Origin: an uncultured delta proteobacterium
GTDB lineage: Bacteria > Myxococcota_A > Polyangia > Polyangiales > Polyangiaceae
Assembly (NCBI GenBank): GCA_963850305.1
Contig: CAWKKR010000005.1
Span: 96,001-160,000, forward strand
Length of the DNA: 64,000 nt
Direction of reading: 5' to 3'
The notes beneath the pieces are model-generated. The model had not been told where the DNA came from and made no database searches. It saw nothing but the letters and a program-made list of their open reading frames with translations. Shown here in pieces: positions 26,930-62,203 of the stretch. A program made the translations under genes and the position numbers. Position 1 is the first letter of the stretch. Each line of letters starts with the position of its first letter.

Positions 26930-27230
26930 TCCGCGCAGTTTCGAAATCGAACCCGACGGCGCGCTTCTTCGCGCCATCGAGGCCGTACATCACGTTGATC
27001 GACAGACCGCTCTCGTAGAACACATAGGCGAAGCGGGTGCCGTCGACCTCGAAGGACGTGGCCTCCAGGGGCCGCGACGCGATGACGATGTCGCGCTCTT
27101 CCTCGAGGATGCGGTGCACGTACGCGACGATATCCTTCGCCTTGCTCGCCGGCTCCACTGTGAAGACGTGGTCATACTTGTTCTTGAAGTAGCGGGCTTC
27201 GTTGGCGCGCAACGAAGGCCCCACGTCGAA
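26930..27230 (-). pseudogene. internal fragment of a conserved hypothetical gene
   Basis: Protein-like segment PSLRANEARYFKNKYDHVF...YVFYESGLSINVMY...KRAVGF with no start of its own; its 5' side abuts a repeat element. Confidence 0.55.
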
Positions 27231-27360
27231 GGGGGGCCTTGCCCCCGCGGCTTGCTTCGCAACCGCTCCCCCCGGCGCCTTCGGCGGGCTCGCTCCGCTC
27301 GCGTAGTTCCGCACCTCTTTGATCCCTCGGGGACGACGTGCATCGTCGATGCGGAACTAC
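27231..27360 (-). repeat. GTAG-hairpin repeat element, copy 1 (head plus 1 unit)
   Basis: Head GTAGTTCCGCA...TGCGGAACTAC at 27303-27360; one unit at 27231-27302. Confidence 0.9.
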
Positions 27361-27387
27361 TGATGCCGACTCAAGGAGCCGACCAGA

Positions 27388-34564: not shown

Positions 34565-35243
34565 GTCATGCGGCAAACCCGCCGGGATCGCCGGCACTCC
34601 CGTCGGGATCATGCACACTCCCGTCGGGATCACGCGTCCTCCCGCCGGGATCACGCGTCCTCCCATCGGGATCATGCACTCTCCCGGCCGGGATCGCCGA
34701 CACTCCCGTCGGGATCACGCGTCCTCCCGCCGGGATCACCGACACTCCCGTCGGGATCACGCGTCCTCCCAGCCGGGGTCACGCGTCCTCCCGCCGGGAT
34801 CACGCGTCCTCCCGTCGGGATCACGCGTCCTCCCAGCCGGGATCACGCGTCCTCCCGGCAGGGTCAAGCGACAAACCCGACGGGAGTGCCGACGATCCCG
34901 CCGGGATCGTCGGTTACCCTGGTGAGGTCGTTCCGGATTCCGGGAGAACCGGCGCTCGTGCCGCGACGCGGGTCGATGATTCCGTATGGGAGCGGCGCTG
35001 ATCTCCGCGGGATCGTCGGCCATCGCGGCGAGATCGGCGTGGACCTCGCGTGGGATGGCGCTGGCCCCGGCGGTCGAAGGCACCCTGTCGACGAGGTCGC
35101 GAGCAAGCGCGGCGCGCGAGGCAGGTAACGCGCGCAGCGATCGGCCCACCCTGCGTCGCGATCGATCGTGACCTCGTCGCAGTGCGCAGGCTGCTTCGCG
35201 ACCGCGTGGCCGACGCGCGAGAGTGTCGTCGAAATGCGCCGGT

Positions 35244-35605
35244 GGCCTTGCCCCCGCGGCTCGCTTCGCGCCCGCTCCCCCCGCCGCCTTCGGCGGGCTC
35301 GCTCCGCTCGTTAGGTAAAGGGGGCCTTGCCCCCGCGGCTCGCTTCGCGCCCGCTCCCCCCGCCGCCTTCGGCGGGCTCGCTCCGCTCGTTAGGTAAAGG
35401 GGGCCTTGCCCCCGCGGCTCGCTTCGCGCCCGCTCCCCCCGCCGCCTTCGGCGGGCTCGCTCCGCTCGTTAGGTAAAGGGGGCCTTGCCCCCGCGGCTCG
35501 CTTCGCGCCCGCTCCCCCGCCGCCTTCGGCGGGCTCGCTCCGCTCGCGTAGTTCCGCGCTTGTTTCATCCCTCGGGGACGACGTGCATCGTCGATGCGGA
35601 ACTAC
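35244..35605 (-). repeat. GTAG-hairpin repeat element, copy 2 (head plus ~4 units of 79 bp)
   Basis: Unit period 79 (35251, 35330, 35409, 35488); head at 35548-35605. Confidence 0.92.
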
Positions 35606-35713
35606 TAGGAACGTAGATTTCCAACCGGTTCATACATCGAGTCGAGTGTTGCGATCCCGCGGAGCGAGGGGTTTACTCTGATCACACTGTATGCACAGGG
35701 GAGCGAGCGGCAC

Positions 35714-38026: not shown

Positions 38027-44291
<6,265 letters not shown>

Positions 44292-52235: not shown

Positions 52236-52378
52236 ACCAACCCTCGCTCCACGCGAGCCGACAGGCAGGGCCCCGTCGGCCGCCGAGACCACGATCGGCC
52301 AAAAAAGGGCGCGTGAGAAATGCCGGCATGGCCGGCGAGGGCCGCTCGCAGATAGCGAACGACGCGATGCGGGCTAGT

Positions 52379-52426
52379 CAAAGAGTCAAAGAGCCAAAGA
52401 GCCAAAGAGCCAAAGAGCCAAAGAGC
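52379..52426. repeat. 8-bp tandem repeat (CAAAGAGC)x6
   Basis: Six contiguous units, the first being CAAAGAGT. Confidence 0.92.
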
Positions 52427-52498
52427 CCTAGTAAATGGCCGCCTCGCCAGGCTACGCTCGAGAGTCCGTCTTTAGCATCGGATCAAGGAGCCCTGGCA

Positions 52499-53080
52499 AT
52501 GCACAGAGTGATGGTGGGAGCGGTACTGGCGAGTGTGATTGGGGGCACGTGGGGATGCGTGCCGCGTCTAGCAACAGAGGAGGAACGCGTATTTTCCGCG
52601 CGATCCGTCGTGAATGTGGCGCCCGGGTCGTCGCCGCCGCTCGTGGGGACGTATGATTTCGACTTGCTCGGCGATGCGCAGGGACAAGCCTGCGCGGAAT
52701 GGGGCGACATGAACAAGCTCGGATTCCGGCAGATCCTCGTCGACGGACACCCGGCCATCTACACGGCCGCGGTCGCTGGCGCGACCTTCGACAGCGACGA
52801 TCCCCTCGTCCGGCAAGCGGAGTCGGCGGCCGTGTTCAACGCGCTCAGCAAGCTGAACGGCGCAGATCTGATGTTCGTCACGCGATCGTCGTTGACCTCG
52901 GACACGGCGGAAAAGCTCTGCGCGACGGTCTGGGGGCAGATCGTTCGATTGAAGAAGGGGCCAACGCTGTCGCCGAAGGCCATCGCAGAGCTGCCGGCGA
53001 CCATGCCGTCGCCGTCGCCGGCGCCAGGCACGGCACCGCCGCCCCCGCCGGCCGCCGCGCCCGCGCCCGCCGCTCAGTAG
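52499..53080 (+). CDS. hypothetical lipoprotein with Pro/Ala-rich tail
   Basis: AAGGAG ribosome-binding site; signal peptide ending in TWGC. Confidence 0.7.
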   Translation: MHRVMVGAVLASVIGGTWGCVPRLATEEERVFSARSVVNVAPGSSPPLVGTYDFDLLGDAQGQACAEWGDMNKLGFRQILVDGHPAIYTAAVAGATFDSDDPLVRQAESAAVFNALSKLNGADLMFVTRSSLTSDTAEKLCATVWGQIVRLKKGPTLSPKAIAELPATMPSPSPAPGTAPPPPPAAAPAPAAQ

Positions 53081-53210
53081 ATGCCCATCGGCGAGAGCGC
53101 CTTCCCCGAAGCATGAAGCTCGGGTCGTCGCGTGGACGGTGGAGTCGAGTGTATCCTGCCGCGGCGTCGGGAACGAGGTCGGCCGTGACTTGGTGCCAAG
53201 AACCCGTTCA

Positions 53211-53340
53211 GTAGTTCCGCATCGACGAGCAGCGTCGTCCCCGAGGAATGAAAGCGGTGCGGAACTACCGAGCGCAGCGAGTACCGGGGGGAGGGGTTGC
53301 GTAGCAAGCCCCGGGGGGCGGGCAACGCCCCCCTTTCCTA
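53211..53340 (+). repeat. GTAG-hairpin repeat element, copy 3 (head plus 1 divergent unit)
   Basis: Head at 53211-53268; unit ends CCCCCTTTCCTA at the IS110 junction. Confidence 0.85.
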
Positions 53341-53344
53341 GTAG

Positions 53345-53455
53345 ATGGACCCGGAGCCCTGCGAGCACCCCGAATTGTGACCACGGGTCGAAAGATTCCG
53401 GGAGCACGCCTAGTAGACTTCGATGACGAGGGCTCCTCTCGACGCGCCGAAAGGA
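53345..53455 (+). ncRNA. candidate bridge RNA (IS110 left non-coding end)
   Basis: Stem GGAGCCCT (53353-53360) with AGGGCTCC (53429-53436), nested hairpins, CCTAGTAGA at 53409-53417 matching the junction; function inferred from IS110 biology. Confidence 0.6.
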
Positions 53456-53459
53456 GGAG

Positions 53460-54692
53460 ATGGTCATGGAAGTCATGTATCCCCGTTGCGCGGGCCTCGA
53501 CGTCCACAAGGATAGCGTCGTTGCCTGCGTGCGCTGCGTCAGCGAACCAACGCGGCGCGAGGTCCGAACGTTCGGCACGACCACACGTAGCCTCTTCGAG
53601 CTGGCGGAATGGCTCGAGGAGCACGGCGTGACCCACGTGGCGATGGAGGCCACCGGCGTGTACTGGAAGCCGGTCTGGCACATGCTCGAAGGGAGCTTCG
53701 AACTCGTGCTCGCGAACGCCCAGCACATTCGCAACGTGCCAGGGCGCAAGACCGACGTGAACGACGCGACGTGGATCGCCGATCTGCTCGCGCACGGGCT
53801 GATCCGCAGCAGTTTCGTGCCTCCTGCGCGAATCCAGGAGCTGCGCGATCTCACTCGAACGCGCAAGCAGCTCGTGCGAGAAATCGCCCAGCACACGCTG
53901 CGCATACAGAAAACGCTCGAGGACTCGAACATCAAGGTCGCGAGCGTCCTGTCCAGCGTGCTCGGGACCAGCGGCCGGGCGATGCTCGCCGCTCTCATCG
54001 CCGGAGAAGATGACCCCGAGCGCCTTGCCGATCTCGCGGTCGGTACCGCGCGCAAGAAGAGGGCCGACTTGATCGAAGCGCTGCGCGGGCGGGTTACCCC
54101 TCATCACCGAGCCATGCTGAAGCTGCATCTCGGCGTCATCGGCTCGCTCGAAGGGGCCCTGGCCGAGATCGATGCAGCTGCGGGAAAAGCGCTGGAGCCG
54201 ATCCGGGCGCACGCCGAGATCCTGACGACGATGCCGGGAGTGAGTGACATCGTCGCGAACGTGATCGTGGCGGAGATCGGCGTCGACATGTCGCGCTTCC
54301 CGTCTGCGGGACACCTCGTGTCCTGGGCCGGCCTCTGCCCCCGCAACGACGAGAGCGCCGGCAAGCGTCGCTCGACGCGCGTCCGCAAGAGCGCCAACTG
54401 GCTCAAGACGACGCTCGTCACATCCGCCTGGGCCGCGGTGCGCACGAAGGAAAGCTACCTTCGAGCCCAGTTTCTCCGGCTCAAGTCCCGCCGTGGAGCA
54501 AAGAAGGCGATCTTGGCCGTCGCCGCATCGATGCTCACCGCCGCCTTCTACATGCTCCGCGACGGCACTCCCTACCGCGACCTCGGACCCCATCACTTCG
54601 ACCGCCGCGACCAGAGCAAGACCATCAAACGCCTCGTCCGCCGCTTGACCGACCTCGGCTGCGAAGTCGAGATCAAACCTCATGCGGCGTAG
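53460..54692 (+). CDS. IS110-family DEDD recombinase/transposase
   Basis: AGLDVHKD, VAMEATGVYW, GRKTDVNDA, LVSWAGLCPRNDESAGK. Confidence 0.96.
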   Translation: MVMEVMYPRCAGLDVHKDSVVACVRCVSEPTRREVRTFGTTTRSLFELAEWLEEHGVTHVAMEATGVYWKPVWHMLEGSFELVLANAQHIRNVPGRKTDVNDATWIADLLAHGLIRSSFVPPARIQELRDLTRTRKQLVREIAQHTLRIQKTLEDSNIKVASVLSSVLGTSGRAMLAALIAGEDDPERLADLAVGTARKKRADLIEALRGRVTPHHRAMLKLHLGVIGSLEGALAEIDAAAGKALEPIRAHAEILTTMPGVSDIVANVIVAEIGVDMSRFPSAGHLVSWAGLCPRNDESAGKRRSTRVRKSANWLKTTLVTSAWAAVRTKESYLRAQFLRLKSRRGAKKAILAVAASMLTAAFYMLRDGTPYRDLGPHHFDRRDQSKTIKRLVRRLTDLGCEVEIKPHAA

Positions 54693-54701
54693 AGCTTCCT
54701 A

Positions 54702-55111
54702 GTAGTTCCGCACCGACGAGCACCGTCGTCCCCGAGGGATCAAAGAGCTGCGGAACTACGCGAGCGCAGCGAGCGCGCCGAAGGCGGCGGGGGAGCGGTC
54801 GCGGAGCGAGCCGCGGGGGTCAAGACCCCCTTGCGAACACGAGCCCGCCGAAGGCGGCGGGGGAGCGGTTGCGAAGCAAGCCGCGGGGGTCAAGACCCCC
54901 TTGCGAACACGAGCGCGCCGAAGGCGGCGGGGGAGCGGTCGCGAAGCGAGCCGCGGGGGTCAAGACCCCCTTGCGAACACGAGCGCGCCGAAGGCGGCGG
55001 GGGAGCGGTCGCGAAGCGAGCCGCGGGGGTCAAGACCCCCTTGCGAACACGAGCCCGCCGAAGGCGGCGGGGGAGCGGTCGCGAAGCAAGCCGCGGGGGT
55101 CAAGACCCCCC
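54702..55111 (+). repeat. GTAG-hairpin repeat element, copy 4 (head plus 5 units of 70 bp)
   Basis: Head at 54702-54759; period 70 (54781, 54851, 54921, 54991, 55061). Confidence 0.93.
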
Positions 55112-55148: not shown

Positions 55149-56150
55149 TCAGTACGGCGCCTCGCCGATGTAGTTGCCGGCGGGGCTGTAGTTGCAGATC
55201 CAGATGTCTTCTTGGAACGCGCCGTCCTGGCAGGTCGAGACGCCGCAGCCGAGCTGGGTGCTGTTCCGCCAAACGATCTGCGTGTAATGGCCGCACCCGT
55301 CGCTGTTGAGCGCCTCGTAGCACGTCGGATTGCATTGCTCGGTCCCGGAGATCGTCCCGTACGTCCAGCACGACTCCTCCGCGGCCCAGCCGCTCACGGC
55401 TTGCTGCGCCGTACTTCCGTTGCCGCCGGCATACCTGAAGACGGCGAGGTTTTCTCCGTACCCCACCTGCTCGAGTTCTTGCTCCGTGCGGTGGTGCGGG
55501 CTGGCGCAGTCGGTCTGCGCGAGGCTATCGGCCCATTGCTGTGCATACGCGGCGATCGTCGGTGACCACGTGAGCGGTGGCAACGGTGTCGAAGTCTGGA
55601 CCGCCGCGCGCACGGCGTTGTGTGCGGCCGTGATACCGGCGAGCCGTCCCGTTTCGGGATCACCGCCACTCGACCCGCCGGTGCCGGCACCCCCCGCCCC
55701 AGCGCCACCGTTGCCGATCGCGCCACCGTTGCCGATCGCGCCACCGTTGCCGATCGCGCCACCGTTGCCGATCGCGCCACCGTTGCCGGAGCCGATCGCG
55801 CCACCGTTGCCGATCGCGCCGCCGTTGCCGATCGCGCCACCGTTGCCGGAGCCGATCGCGCCACCGTTGCCGGAGCCGATCGCGCCACCGCTGCCGATCG
55901 CGCCACCGTTGCCGGAGCCGATCGCGCCACCGTTGCCGATCGCGCCGCCGTTCCCGGAGGCGTTCGCACCACCATTACCGACTGCGCCCCCGTTTCCACC
56001 GAACACCATCGCGCCGCCCTGACTTCCGTTCCCGAGTTGCGATGGCGGCGGGCTCGCGCCGTCCGCGCTGCACGCGACGGCGCCCAAAGTGCACCCGGCG
56101 GCCACTACCGCGCACCACAGTCGAGACGTCTGCGCCATCACACACCTCAT
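55149..56150 (-). CDS. CAP (SCP/PR-1) domain lipoprotein with GNGGAI repeats
   Basis: Lipobox AVAC, HNAVRA, YGENL, CGHYTQIVW, ICNYSPAGNYIG. Confidence 0.9.
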   Translation of the reverse strand: MRCVMAQTSRLWCAVVAAGCTLGAVACSADGASPPPSQLGNGSQGGAMVFGGNGGAVGNGGANASGNGGAIGNGGAIGSGNGGAIGSGGAIGSGNGGAIGSGNGGAIGNGGAIGNGGAIGSGNGGAIGNGGAIGNGGAIGNGGAIGNGGAGAGGAGTGGSSGGDPETGRLAGITAAHNAVRAAVQTSTPLPPLTWSPTIAAYAQQWADSLAQTDCASPHHRTEQELEQVGYGENLAVFRYAGGNGSTAQQAVSGWAAEESCWTYGTISGTEQCNPTCYEALNSDGCGHYTQIVWRNSTQLGCGVSTCQDGAFQEDIWICNYSPAGNYIGEAPY

Positions 56151-58934: not shown

Positions 58935-59362
58935 ACTACCAGGAAAGGGGGCCTTGCCAGCCTTGCCCCCGCGGCTCGCTTCGCGCCCGCTCCCCCGCCG
59001 CCTTCGGCGGGCTCGTGCTCGCAAGGGGGTCTTGACCCCCGCGGCTCGCTTCGCGCCCGCTCCCCCGCCGCCTTCGGCGGGCTCGCGCTCGCAAGGGGGT
59101 CTTGACCCCCGCGGCTCGCTTCGCGCCCGCTCCCCCGCCGCCTTCGGCGGGCTCGCGCTCGCAAGGGGGTCTTGACCCCCGCGGCTCGCTTCGCGCCCGC
59201 TCCCCCGCCGCCTTCGGCGGGCTCGCGCTCGCAAGGGGGTCTTGACCCCCGCGGCTCGCTTCGCGCCCGCTCCCCCGCCGCCTTCGGCGGGCTCGCTCCG
59301 CTCGCGTAGTTCCGCAGCTCTTTGATCCTCGGGGACGACGCTGCTTGTCGATGCGGAACTAC
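58935..59362 (-). repeat. GTAG-hairpin repeat element, copy 5 (head plus 5 units of 70 bp)
   Basis: Period 70 (58971, 59041, 59111, 59181, 59251); head at 59306-59362. Confidence 0.93.
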
Positions 59363-59640
59363 TGCTTCTCGCAGTGGTACTCGCCGAAGAAGATCGCCGT
59401 CCGCGCGCACTTCACGGCGACGTGGCCGCCCTTTTCGAGCTGGTACGCATACTCGTGCGAAAACGGTGAGCGCTGGAATTCGGTCATCTGGGCGGGGCAC
59501 GGAGTTCCGCCGCACGCCGTCTGCATCGCCAGGCGTTCGACATCCGTGGAGTCGCCATACGTGTTCAGGAGCCCCGCGGTGGTGAGCACCACGACCACCA
59601 GCGGCAACAGGACGCGACGCACGACACCGGGTTCGGACAC
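59359..59640 (-). CDS. small secreted or membrane hypothetical protein
   Basis: GTG 59640, TM segment LLPLVVVVLTTAGLL, four Cys. Confidence 0.65.
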   Translation of the reverse strand: MSEPGVVRRVLLPLVVVVLTTAGLLNTYGDSTDVERLAMQTACGGTPCPAQMTEFQRSPFSHEYAYQLEKGGHVAVKCARTAIFFGEYHCEKQ

Positions 59641-60522: not shown

Positions 60523-61881
60523 ATGGCTCAAACGAACATCGACCCCACCGGCAAGAGCACCGCGGTTCCGACCCGCGACGGCGGCACCTACCACGTCGCG
60601 GATCTCGGTCTTGCGGACTGGGGCCGAAAAGAAATCCAGATCGCCGAGACCGAAATGCCGGGCCTGATGGCGCTCCGCGAGGAGTACGGCGCGAAGCAGC
60701 CGCTCAAGGGCGCCCGCATCGCCGGCTGTCTGCACATGACCATCCAGACCGCGGTGCTCATCGAAACGTTGAAGCACCTCGGTGCCGAGGTCACATGGAC
60801 GACCTGCAACATCTACTCGACACAGGATCATGCGGCCGCGGCGATCGCGAGGGCCGGAATTCCCGTGTTCGCATGGAAGGGGGAGACGGAGCCCGAGTAC
60901 TACGAGTGTATCGAGCGGCAGCTCAAAGCGTTCGCGGGCGGCAAGGCCCCGAACATGATCCTCGACGACGGCGGGGATCTGACCCATGTCGTGCACGACA
61001 AATATCCTGAGATGTTCGCGGGTGTGGATCCGATCCGCGGGCTCAGCGAAGAGACGACGACGGGCGTGCACCGGCTCTACGAAATGTTCAAGAAGGGCAC
61101 GCTCAAGTGTCCGGCCATGAATGTCAACGACTCGGTCACGAAGAGCAAATTCGACAACCTGTACGGCTGCCGCGAGTCGGGCATCGACGGGATCAAGCGC
61201 GCCACCGACGTCATGTTCGCCGGCAAGGTCGCGGTCGTGGCCGGCTACGGCGACGTGGGTAAAGGCTGCGCGCAGTCGTTGAGAGGGCAGGGGGCGCGTG
61301 TTCTCATCACGGAGATCGATCCCATCTGCGCGCTCCAGGCGGCGATGGAAGGCTATCAGGTCGTCACGATGGACGAGGCGGCCCCGCTTGGCGACATCTT
61401 CATCACGGCGACCGGGTGCCTCGACGTCGTTCGCGGCGACCACATGCGCGCCATGAAGAACGAGGCGATCCTGTGCAATATCGGCCACTTCGACATGGAA
61501 ATCGACATGCGATTCCTCGAGAGCACGCAGGGGATCAAGGAAGAGAACATCAAGCCCCAGGTCGACCACTTCACCTTCCCAGACGGCAAGAAACTCATCG
61601 TGCTCGCCCGCGGACGGCTCGTGAACCTCGGTTGCGCGACGGGTCATCCGAGCTTCGTCATGAGCACGAGCTTCACGAATCAGGTCGTGGCGCAGATAGC
61701 GCTCTTCAACGAGAAATTCCCGATCGGCGTGCACCTCATTCCGAAGAAGCTGGACGAAAAGGTCGCGCGGCTGCACCTCGGCAAGCTCGGCGTGAAACTC
61801 GACAAGCTGACGACGAAGCAAGCGGAGTACCTCGGCGTCTCCGTCGAGGGCCCATACAAGGCCGATCTTTACCGGTACTAG
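60523..61881 (+). CDS. ahcY: adenosylhomocysteinase
   Basis: [58 protein letters not shown]. Confidence 0.97.
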
Positions 61882-62203
61882 GGGGTCTTGACCCCCGCGG
61901 CTCGCTTCGCGACCGCTCCCCCGCCGCCTTCGGCGTGCTCGTGCTCGCAAGGGGGTCTTGACCCCCGCGGCTCGCTTCGCGACCGCTCCCCCGCCGCCTT
62001 CGGCGTGCTCGTGCTCGCAAGGGGGTCTTGACCCCCGCGGCTCGCTTCGCGACCGCTCCCCCGCCGCCTTCGGCGTGCTCGTGCTCGCAAGGGGGTCTTG
62101 ACCCCCGCGGCTCGCTTCGCGACCGCTCCCCCGCCGCCTTCGGCGTGCTCGCTGCGCTCGCGTAGTTCCGCAGCTCTTTGATGCTTCAGGGACGGCGTGC
62201 TCG
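61881..62203 (-). repeat. GTAG-hairpin repeat element, copy 6 (4 units of 70 bp plus truncated head)
   Basis: Period 70 (61901, 61971, 62041, 62111); GTAGTTCCGCA at 62162 with the distal arm degenerate. Confidence 0.92.

What the first reader, a model, noticed from the sequence alone, without database searches (positions are those of the whole stretch)
53211..55111. IS110 sits precisely at the tail-to-head joint of two repeat elements and shares a 10-bp core with them
Seen: TTCCTAGTAG flanks both ends. The empty site is CCCCCTTTCCTAGTAGTTCCGCA (tail end of copy 3 plus GTAG head of copy 4). The predicted circle junction is AGAGCTTCCTAGTAGATGGACC. Known: IS110 recombinases such as IS621 use an RNA guide, share only a short core between donor and target, and can target REP sequences. 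Inference: the IS homes to this repeat family. Because three repeat tails also end in CTAGTAG, CTGGTAG or CTAGTA, the recombinase might itself mobilise or concatenate the repeats as non-autonomous partners.
Basis: partly seen in the sequence, partly recalled or inferred. Interest (0 to 1): 0.8.

Follow-up and report, generated by a model that had tools for sequence, protein, structure and literature searches.

The report
IS110 with its own hitch-hiking mini-elements
An RNA-guided jumping gene in this soil bacterium appears to have spawned a genome-wide family of small gene-less copies of its own two ends, and one such copy has landed inside the very guide sequence that steers the jumping gene.

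Summary
The letters are as reported, but the boundary is wrong. All 8 genomic copies of this IS110 begin 264 bp further left (53081, after TCAGTAG). Repeat 'copy 3' (53215-53344) is an insert inside the left-end bridge-RNA gene, present in 2 of 8 copies. Covariation across homologues gives a 2-nt AG core, not 10 bp, with target guide TCAGTAG and donor guide CTAGTAG.

7 of 8 copies abut a repeat head. The repeat head is homologous to the IS left end and its tail matches the IS right end. 48 solo copies follow a TCAGTAG-like 7-mer, which at 3 empty orthologous sites is host gene sequence. No RAYT was found. The repeat is best read as a non-autonomous IS110 MITE, like MITEPpu9/ISPpu9, but with at least 64 heads here and copies in 5 of 6 congeners.

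The distinctive point is a precise insertion into the DNA that encodes the target guide, which necessarily copies the target. This probably disables the guide or swaps it. Circles and recombination were not tested. This scan already noted IS110 MITEs in other genomes.

The parts
53074..53080 (+). Left target + core (TCAGT-AG); the TAG is the stop codon of the upstream ORF
   Evidence: 7 of 8 IS copies are preceded by TCAGTAG; it ends a 329-codon open frame with GC3 0.87
53081..54705 (+). True extent of the IS110 copy (1625 bp; 1494-1495 bp in the 6 copies without the insert)
53081..53125 (+). IS left-end 'A box' (donor right end plus hairpin), homologous to the repeat head
   Evidence: head consensus vs this segment z=5.3, 0 of 1000 shuffles; congener repeats 89-93% identical over 30-35 nt
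53161..53449 (+). Predicted bridge RNA (about 158 nt without the insert), interrupted in this copy
   Evidence: alignment and consensus fold of homologues; folds; no Rfam hit
53183..53190 (+). Target-loop 5' guide (CCGTGA-CT), reads the right flank loosely
   Evidence: covariation 30 of 78 nt vs 19.4 permuted, p=0.003
53208..53214 (+). Target-loop 3' guide (TCAGTAG), equal to the left target; also the landing site of the internal repeat
   Evidence: 55 of 55 non-core nt match the left junction in 11 elements vs 21.2 permuted
53215..53344 (+).
   Evidence: absent from 6 of 8 copies with exact flanks; 100% identical to the insert at C8:718270; best free copy 96%; joined form without it in run X3
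53411..53417 (+). Donor-loop 3' guide (CTAGTAG), equal to the IS right end and to the repeat tail
   Evidence: 63 of 65 non-core nt in 13 elements vs 36.3 permuted
53460..54692 (+). IS110 DEDD/Ser recombinase, 410 aa (D14, E63, D99, D102, S299)
   Evidence: PF01548 98 bits, PF02371 80 bits; IS621 E=1e-12; motif positions
54693..54705 (+). Short right end ('B box') with core AG
   Evidence: identical in 8 of 8 copies
54706..55111 (+). Downstream repeat: head plus five 70-nt units; no intact tail
   Evidence: first 112 nt identical to the repeat after the C11 IS copy
58938..59364 (-). Solo member of the repeat family (GCAGTAG| ... TTTCCTGGTAG|)
61880..62203 (-). Head-truncated member of the repeat family
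35241..35606 (-). Member of the repeat family
27226..27362 (-). Member of the repeat family (TCAGTAG| head)

Best explanation
An active IS110-group element (AG core, bridge RNA in the left end) lives with a non-autonomous MITE family built from its own clade's two ends: left-end 'A box' head, GC-rich hairpin body that can expand to tandem 70-mers, and right-end 'B box' tail. The recombinase-bridge RNA complex recombines at AG. It reads TCAGT-AG as left target and CTAGT-AG as left donor, so the IS, the MITE, or IS+MITE can circularise and land after TCAGTAG-like 7-mers, often stop codons. MITE heads keep a target 7-mer on their left and partly match the right-flank guide, so the IS lands at, or travels with, them. 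MITE tails differ from the target only at the two most tolerant positions, which explains tail-to-head tandems. Because the guide-coding DNA is itself a copy of the target, one MITE was recombined into it, and that IS form now stands at two loci, most likely moved in trans. Shown by sequence: boundaries, core, three of four guides, end homology, flank consensus, exact insert. Inferred: circles, catalysis on repeat ends, trans-mobilisation, effect on the guide.
For: Guide-junction covariation. Solo heads were found without using the flank, and are preceded by T29 C26 A38 G44 T40 A47 G45 of 48 with no bias at -8. Tails read C34 T32 A29 G30 T25 A25 G28 of 43, then near background. The head aligns to the left ends of 11 of 22 homologues at <=1 of 1000 shuffles. 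Congener repeats carry IS-type heads (L141-L143), as does C8:1022567. At 3 of 7 syntenic sites the 7-mer is the host gene's last codons and the orthologue is empty. The insert in the guide is exact. No RAYT in the genome. Precedent: ISPpu9/MITEPpu9 circles (PMC12288879).
Against: No circle or repeat-only junction was observed; only contigs were available. Only 7 of 48 solo heads have an exact TCAGTAG. The fourth guide showed no covariation (p=1) and the handshake test was not significant (p=0.09). A profile HMM of homologue left ends did not separate repeats from background: at E<1 it gave 8 IS ends, 2 repeats and 4 other sites. The body is shared with a second head family of 27 copies, so it has another origin. 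Congeners carry the repeat but no close transposase was found in the 5 searched (best 37%; fragmented assemblies). All three empty orthologues end TAA, not TAG. 11 of 54 parsed elements lack a recognisable tail.
Confidence: 0.75

Rival explanations
1. The repeats are IS110-end-bounded but never move alone. They spread as cargo in IS+repeat circles and stay behind when the IS excises, or are homogenised by gene conversion between IS copies. The internal copy arose when the transposase-bearing part moved from the head to the tail of a resident repeat.
For: IS-adjacent repeats are more alike than random sets (0.929 vs 0.882, p=0.005; 7 of 44 elements); the window and C11 copies are identical over 112 nt. 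Three variants are private to them (3/7, 3/7, 5/7 vs 0/47). At C5:297446, 3 of 5 congener loci show both flanks with neither IS nor this repeat. C8:718135 has no repeat on its right.
Against: The 7 downstream arrays end in different terminal units. No left-end-plus-repeat relic without transposase exists (the segment occurs at 8 places only). This route still needs the recombinase to act at repeat ends, so it differs from the best explanation only in route.
Confidence: 0.15
2. The repeat is an ordinary GTAG-type REP/REPIN made by a RAYT that has been lost; the IS110 only evolved to target it, as IS621 does.
For: GTAG tag plus inverted repeat GTAGTTCCGC..GCGGAACTAC; conserved in 5 of 6 congeners; the right-flank guide of L145 matches the head at 5 of 7 positions plus a wobble; Y1_Tnp genes occur in 3 of 5 congeners.
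Against: No PF01797 or NF047646 match in this 94.8%-complete genome. None of 12 fetched Y1 loci (of 16 matches) carries the repeat (best E 0.018). The GTAG tag overlaps host sequence. The head is homologous to left ends of IS from other phyla, and in 5 such genomes a strict left-end pattern found only the IS itself, or nothing. The tail equals the donor guide.
Confidence: 0.07
3. The internal repeat is an assembly artefact of a repeat-rich metagenome-assembled genome.
For: Source reads were not available; the two insert-bearing copies differ at an IS site (AA vs GC) that otherwise splits by contig.
Against: Two loci on different contigs carry a 100% identical insert at the same base, and no free copy is closer than 96%.
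Confidence: 0.03

Closest known systems
ISPpu9 and MITEPpu9 (ssr9 module) of Pseudomonas putida KT2440 (PMC12288879; read: abstract, introduction, part of results, discussion, supplement passages)
   Same: IS110 group with AG core; non-autonomous module bounded by copies of the IS left (A box) and right (B box) ends; found directly downstream of most IS copies and also alone or in tandem.
   Different: End sequences differ from ISPpu9's (supplement Table S2; compared by eye). MITEPpu9 has 8 copies in three near-clonal strains and lands in a separate REP; here there are at least 64 heads, in 5 of 6 congeners, and the MITE itself is the REP-like repeat. The body is an expandable 70-nt array. One copy sits in the bridge-RNA target guide. 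Circles are proven for ISPpu9 and untested here.
IS621 of Escherichia coli (PMC11208160, PMC13626964; read: search passages and abstract only)
   Same: DEDD + Ser recombinase, left-end bridge RNA with two guide loops, 2-nt core, association with REP-like repeats.
   Different: The core reads AG on the coding strand (CT on the other). The well-matched guide here is a 7-mer and the other target guide is loose. In the passages read, IS621's REP target is not described as derived from the IS.
GTAG-tagged REPs / REPINs with RAYT (PMC3733652; read: abstract, outline and a term search)
   Same: GTAG next to a palindrome, intergenic, often just after stop codons, many copies, clustered.
   Different: No RAYT found; the tag is target plus core of an IS110; the unit is 120-130 nt with asymmetric ends. 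The paper's main text has no hit for IS110 or for myxobacterial genera.

Membership tests
IS110 family, IS110 group | N-terminal DEDD RuvC-like domain plus C-terminal Ser domain | tested here: met
   PF01548 and PF02371 over cut-off; D14, E63, D99, D102, S299
IS110 family, IS110 group | Short shared core, no target duplication | tested here: met
   Left and right junctions share 2 nt (AG) in 4 of 10 elements, 3 and 4 nt in one each, and 5 nt in 4; a homologue's RE|LE joint is at AG (L128)
IS110 family, IS110 group | Long left end, short right end | tested here: met
   About 250 nt (379 with insert) vs 13 nt
IS110 family, IS110 group | Bridge RNA whose guides covary with target and donor | tested here: met
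   Three guides covary (55/55, 63/65, 30/78); the fourth did not
IS110 family, IS110 group | Circular intermediate and expressed bridge RNA | not testable with these tools
   No raw reads and no RNA holder listed
IS110-derived MITE (MITEPpu9 type) | Both ends homologous to the ends of the IS | tested here: met
   Head; tail:
IS110-derived MITE (MITEPpu9 type) | Free copies sit at the IS target consensus, with the boundary at the core | tested here: met
   48 solo heads; 3 of 7 syntenic empty sites informative
IS110-derived MITE (MITEPpu9 type) | Transposase-dependent MITE-only circles | not testable with these tools
   Needs inverse PCR or raw reads
IS110-derived MITE (MITEPpu9 type) | Carries an expressed small RNA (ssr9) | not tested
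   No RNA data; no Rfam hit
GTAG REP/REPIN-RAYT | GTAG tag beside a palindrome | tested here: met
   Sequence, but the tag overlaps host target sequence
GTAG REP/REPIN-RAYT | RAYT gene flanked by the repeats | tested here: not met
   None in own genome; 0 of 12 congener Y1 loci carry the repeat

The most novel reading that the evidence does not exclude
The guide-coding DNA is a built-in landing pad, and the MITE rewrites the guide by landing in it. The insert buries the original TCAGUAG guide in its own hairpin (mean unpaired 0.14 vs 0.63) and leaves CUAGUAG open (0.84) next to the loop's closing stem, at a similar folding cost (8.3 vs 6.8 kcal/mol). If that RNA still works, 2 of 8 copies now aim at repeat tails and IS right ends, building tandem arrays: a parasite reprogramming its host's RNA guide in one step. 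It would also show that a GTAG REP-like family can be made by a bridge recombinase with no RAYT.
Probability: 0.12. Interest if true: 0.8.

Novelty: new variant of a known kind. Interest (0 to 1): 0.5.

Why it matters
It reverses the usual reading 'IS110 targets REP': here the REP-like family looks like the IS110's own offspring, a second route to GTAG-tagged repeats besides RAYTs. The genome holds the autonomous element, dozens of MITEs and a natural insertion into the guide-coding DNA, so the model can be tested with one recombinase and one RNA. That the guide's DNA is itself a target is a design point for bridge-recombinase tools and a possible natural brake on, or re-targeting of, these elements. 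The basic arrangement (IS110 plus MITE) is known from ISPpu9, which limits the surprise.

Tried and rejected
10-bp core and boundary at 53335: rejected.

The idea that the IS consists of separate cassettes bounded by AGTAG was dropped: the internal AGTAG motifs are the guides.

RAYT origin: not supported.

A single-sequence fold of the left end was no better than shuffles (z 0.93); the loop model rests on the alignment.

The profile HMM of homologue left ends was uninformative.

A full 7-nt target duplication was rejected. Left and right 7-mers agree slightly more than permuted (210 vs 197.9), driven by the base two before the core's end (34 vs 28.1, p=0.003; 56 of 90 elements, 9 tests, some rows mis-anchored). 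This is weak, and compatible with the 2-nt heteroduplex next to the core described in PMC13626964.

Empty-site searches for this copy and for C8:832045 found no orthologue reaching the junction. At C11 the right flank was not syntenic.

Sequencing runs: no RNA holder listed; contigs only, share <=0.24. The X3 joined form may come from the same source.

Metagenome pattern scan: 1 of 2 hits (L144) is a gene end without transposase.

An order-wide search found no parent closer than 64% in 400 genomes.

Literature: searches found no paper on this repeat family or on insertion into a bridge RNA's own guide; the two reviews listed were not read.

Full report
OBSERVATION. The 10-mer TTCCTAGTAG stands at 53335 and 54696, around a 410-aa ORF at 53460-54692. 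It is far above chance: 25 copies in the genome against 0.33 expected; by my reading, 23 of the 25 are IS right ends (8) or repeat tails (15). The ORF is an IS110 recombinase (PF01548, PF02371; IS621 E=1e-12; D14/E63/D99/D102/S299). The genome (6.26 Mb, 11 contigs, 94.8% complete) holds 8 copies at >=99.6% identity.

THE BOUNDARY IS WRONG. All 8 copies share a further segment upstream, found nowhere else. The left junction is TCAGTAG|ATGCCC in 7 of 8 and GTAGTAG|ATGCCC in 1. The right junction is CTAGTAG| in 8 of 8, followed by a repeat head in 7. Six copies are 1494-1495 bp. This copy and C8:718135 are 1624-1625 bp because a 130-nt repeat lies between TCAGTAG (53208-14) and ATGGACC. Removing it gives the insert-free sequence exactly at that joint; the two inserts are 100% identical and the best free copy is 96%. 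A soil-metagenome contig shows the insert-free joint (possibly the same source). An independent IS at 95% aa identity (L145) and the homologues aligned are also insert-free there.

CORE AND GUIDES. I took 41 related loci, used the 21 with a readable left end, and collapsed near-duplicates and one broken copy (6 rows dropped). The 7-mer after the conserved CCCG matches the left junction at 55 of 55 non-core positions (11 elements where a junction rule independent of the guide gave a call; permuted 21.2). The 7-mer after GAGCACG matches the right junction at 63 of 65 (13 elements; permuted 36.3). The 6-mer before CT-TGGTG matches the reverse complement of the right flank at 30 of 78 (permuted 19.4, p=0.003). 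The fourth guide showed no covariation (p=1) and the 2-nt handshake position was not significant (22 of 22, p=0.09), both because left ends start almost always with TT. Left and right junctions share only AG in 4 of 10 elements, so the core is AG. This fits the bridge-RNA model of PMC11208160 and PMC13626964 (passages). A consensus fold puts the guides in two internal loops. Homologues with the same TCAGTAG guide have unrelated right flanks, so the right side of the target is read loosely.

THE REPEAT. A pattern on the 13 nt after the core found 69 heads. I dropped 5 that lacked the repeat body, leaving 64: 48 solo, 7 tandem, 7 after an IS, 2 inside an IS. The pattern missed some true heads seen; a looser merge gave 127 related loci including fragments and a second family (output partly cut).

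Left flank: although the flank was not part of the pattern, solo heads are preceded by T29 C26 A38 G44 T40 A47 G45 of 48, with no bias at -8 and beyond. That is the target guide and its exact length, most tolerant at the two distal bases; only 7 of 48 are exact.

Tail: of 54 elements with a parsed body, 43 have a T-run followed by C34 T32 A29 G30 T25 A25 G28 and then near-background sequence. That is the donor guide and IS right end.

Head: the consensus aligns with the first 42 nt of this IS (z 5.3) and of 11 of 22 homologues at <=1 of 1000 mononucleotide shuffles; a profile HMM was not discriminating. Some repeats carry IS-type heads outright: C8:1022567 and L141-L143 in congeners, 89-93% identical over 30-35 nt to this IS's left end.

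Congeners: the family occurs in 5 of 6 congeners with the same flank consensus (G006 n=23, G002 n=10). That sample is biased, because the query that found them included 6 flank bases. Of 7 congener sites syntenic with this genome, 3 show the 7-mer as the last codons of a host gene whose orthologue here has no repeat (GAT CAG TAG vs GAT CAG TAA; CTC CAG TAG vs CTC CAA TAA; CGT AAG TAG vs CGA AAG TAA), 1 is ambiguous and 3 cannot be aligned. IS left junctions are gene stops in 4 of 8, solo heads in 6 of 48, and control sites in 79 of 1604.

RAYT: none was found here, and 0 of 12 fetched congener Y1 loci carry the repeat.

MECHANISM (inferred unless stated). The repeat is A box + body + B box, a non-autonomous partner. 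Its tail|head junction CTAGT-AG-TTCC is a donor for the present guide, and the same sequence as the IS right junction. Landing after TCAGTAG-like 7-mers gives solo copies. Landing after a tail (5 of 7 match, mismatches at the tolerant positions) gives tandems. The DNA encoding the target guide reads TCAGT-AG-ATGG, both a left target and a near copy of the IS left junction TCAGT-AG-ATGC; recombination there with a repeat junction yields exactly the two joints seen at 53214 and 53344. An intramolecular route (the transposase part moving from head to tail of a resident repeat) gives the same product. In folds, the insert buries the original guide and leaves the donor-type 7-mer open beside the closing stem, so these two copies have a dead or possibly re-aimed guide and were probably moved in trans.

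TARGETING OR CARGO. For targeting: downstream arrays end in different terminal units, and L145's right-flank guide matches the head at 5 of 7 plus a wobble; this IS's guide matches 3 of 6 plus a wobble (read). For co-transfer or conversion: IS-adjacent repeats are more alike than random (p=0.005), two are identical over 112 nt on different contigs, three variants are private to them, and at C5:297446 3 of 5 congener loci have both flanks without IS or repeat. Both probably occur.

COMPARISON. The closest system is ISPpu9 with MITEPpu9: AG core, A/B boxes, and circles of IS, IS+MITE and MITE alone (PMC12288879). The element meets the IS110-group tests that could be run. The repeat meets the sequence tests for an IS110 MITE and fails the RAYT test for a REP. 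Five literature searches found no report of this family or of an insertion into a bridge RNA's own guide; subscription journals and ISfinder were not searchable. Earlier AI notes of this scan describe IS110 MITEs in other genomes (unchecked; seen after my reading was formed); none holds this sequence. The label Polyangia comes from such a note and fits the 80% homologue from a Polyangiaceae genome.

VERDICT. A new variant of a known kind; interest 0.5.

Noticed in passing
G000, 27 copies, e.g. C6:150557, C7:219690, C11:250360, C11:64641: A second repeat family shares the GC-rich body but has a different head (GCTTG[C/G]TCCAGCCGATTCACGG) and tail (CCCCCAGGAACAAAACCCCACG). A few copies are preceded by A-box-like sequence of another IS110 subtype, so it may be the MITE of a different IS110.
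   Followed up: partly
G000:C11:256316-256353: A perfect head-to-head palindrome of two repeat heads, without body.
   Followed up: no
IS position 522; copies on C8 vs other contigs: All four C8 copies (within 150 kb) carry GC where the four copies on other contigs carry AA; the internal repeat occurs on both haplotypes, implying conversion, recombination or strain mixing.
   Followed up: partly
G000:C8:864850-866347: One IS copy has a 1-bp insertion near the 3' end of the transposase: frameshift or long-read error.
   Followed up: no
window 53151-53158: A TAnnnT motif just upstream of the predicted bridge RNA recurs in homologues; it may be a native -10 element, as ISPpu9 has a native promoter.
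   Followed up: no
L128 (G145:C225): A homologue's right end is joined directly to its own left end at AG: a tandem or circle junction.
   Followed up: partly
L037, L040, L041: Alphaproteobacterial homologues sit inside classical GTAG palindromic REP-like repeats, unlike the TCAGTAG group.
   Followed up: no
window 52376-52431: 8-nt tandem repeat (AGCCAAAG, about 6 copies) upstream of the gene that precedes the IS.
   Followed up: no
window 55149-56150 (-): CAP-domain protein with a Gly-Asn-rich 18/24-nt repeat linker.
   Followed up: no
window 40830-43930: Eleven 276-nt in-frame repeats, probably a poly-HAMP sensor kinase (label from my own knowledge, not tested).
   Followed up: no
G000:C8:1489761: TTCCTAGTAG followed by ACTTCG, like the donor-guide region, outside any IS or repeat.
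   Followed up: no
L157 (G006:C44): A different short palindromic repeat pair sits at the site orthologous to the C5:297446 IS insertion.
   Followed up: no
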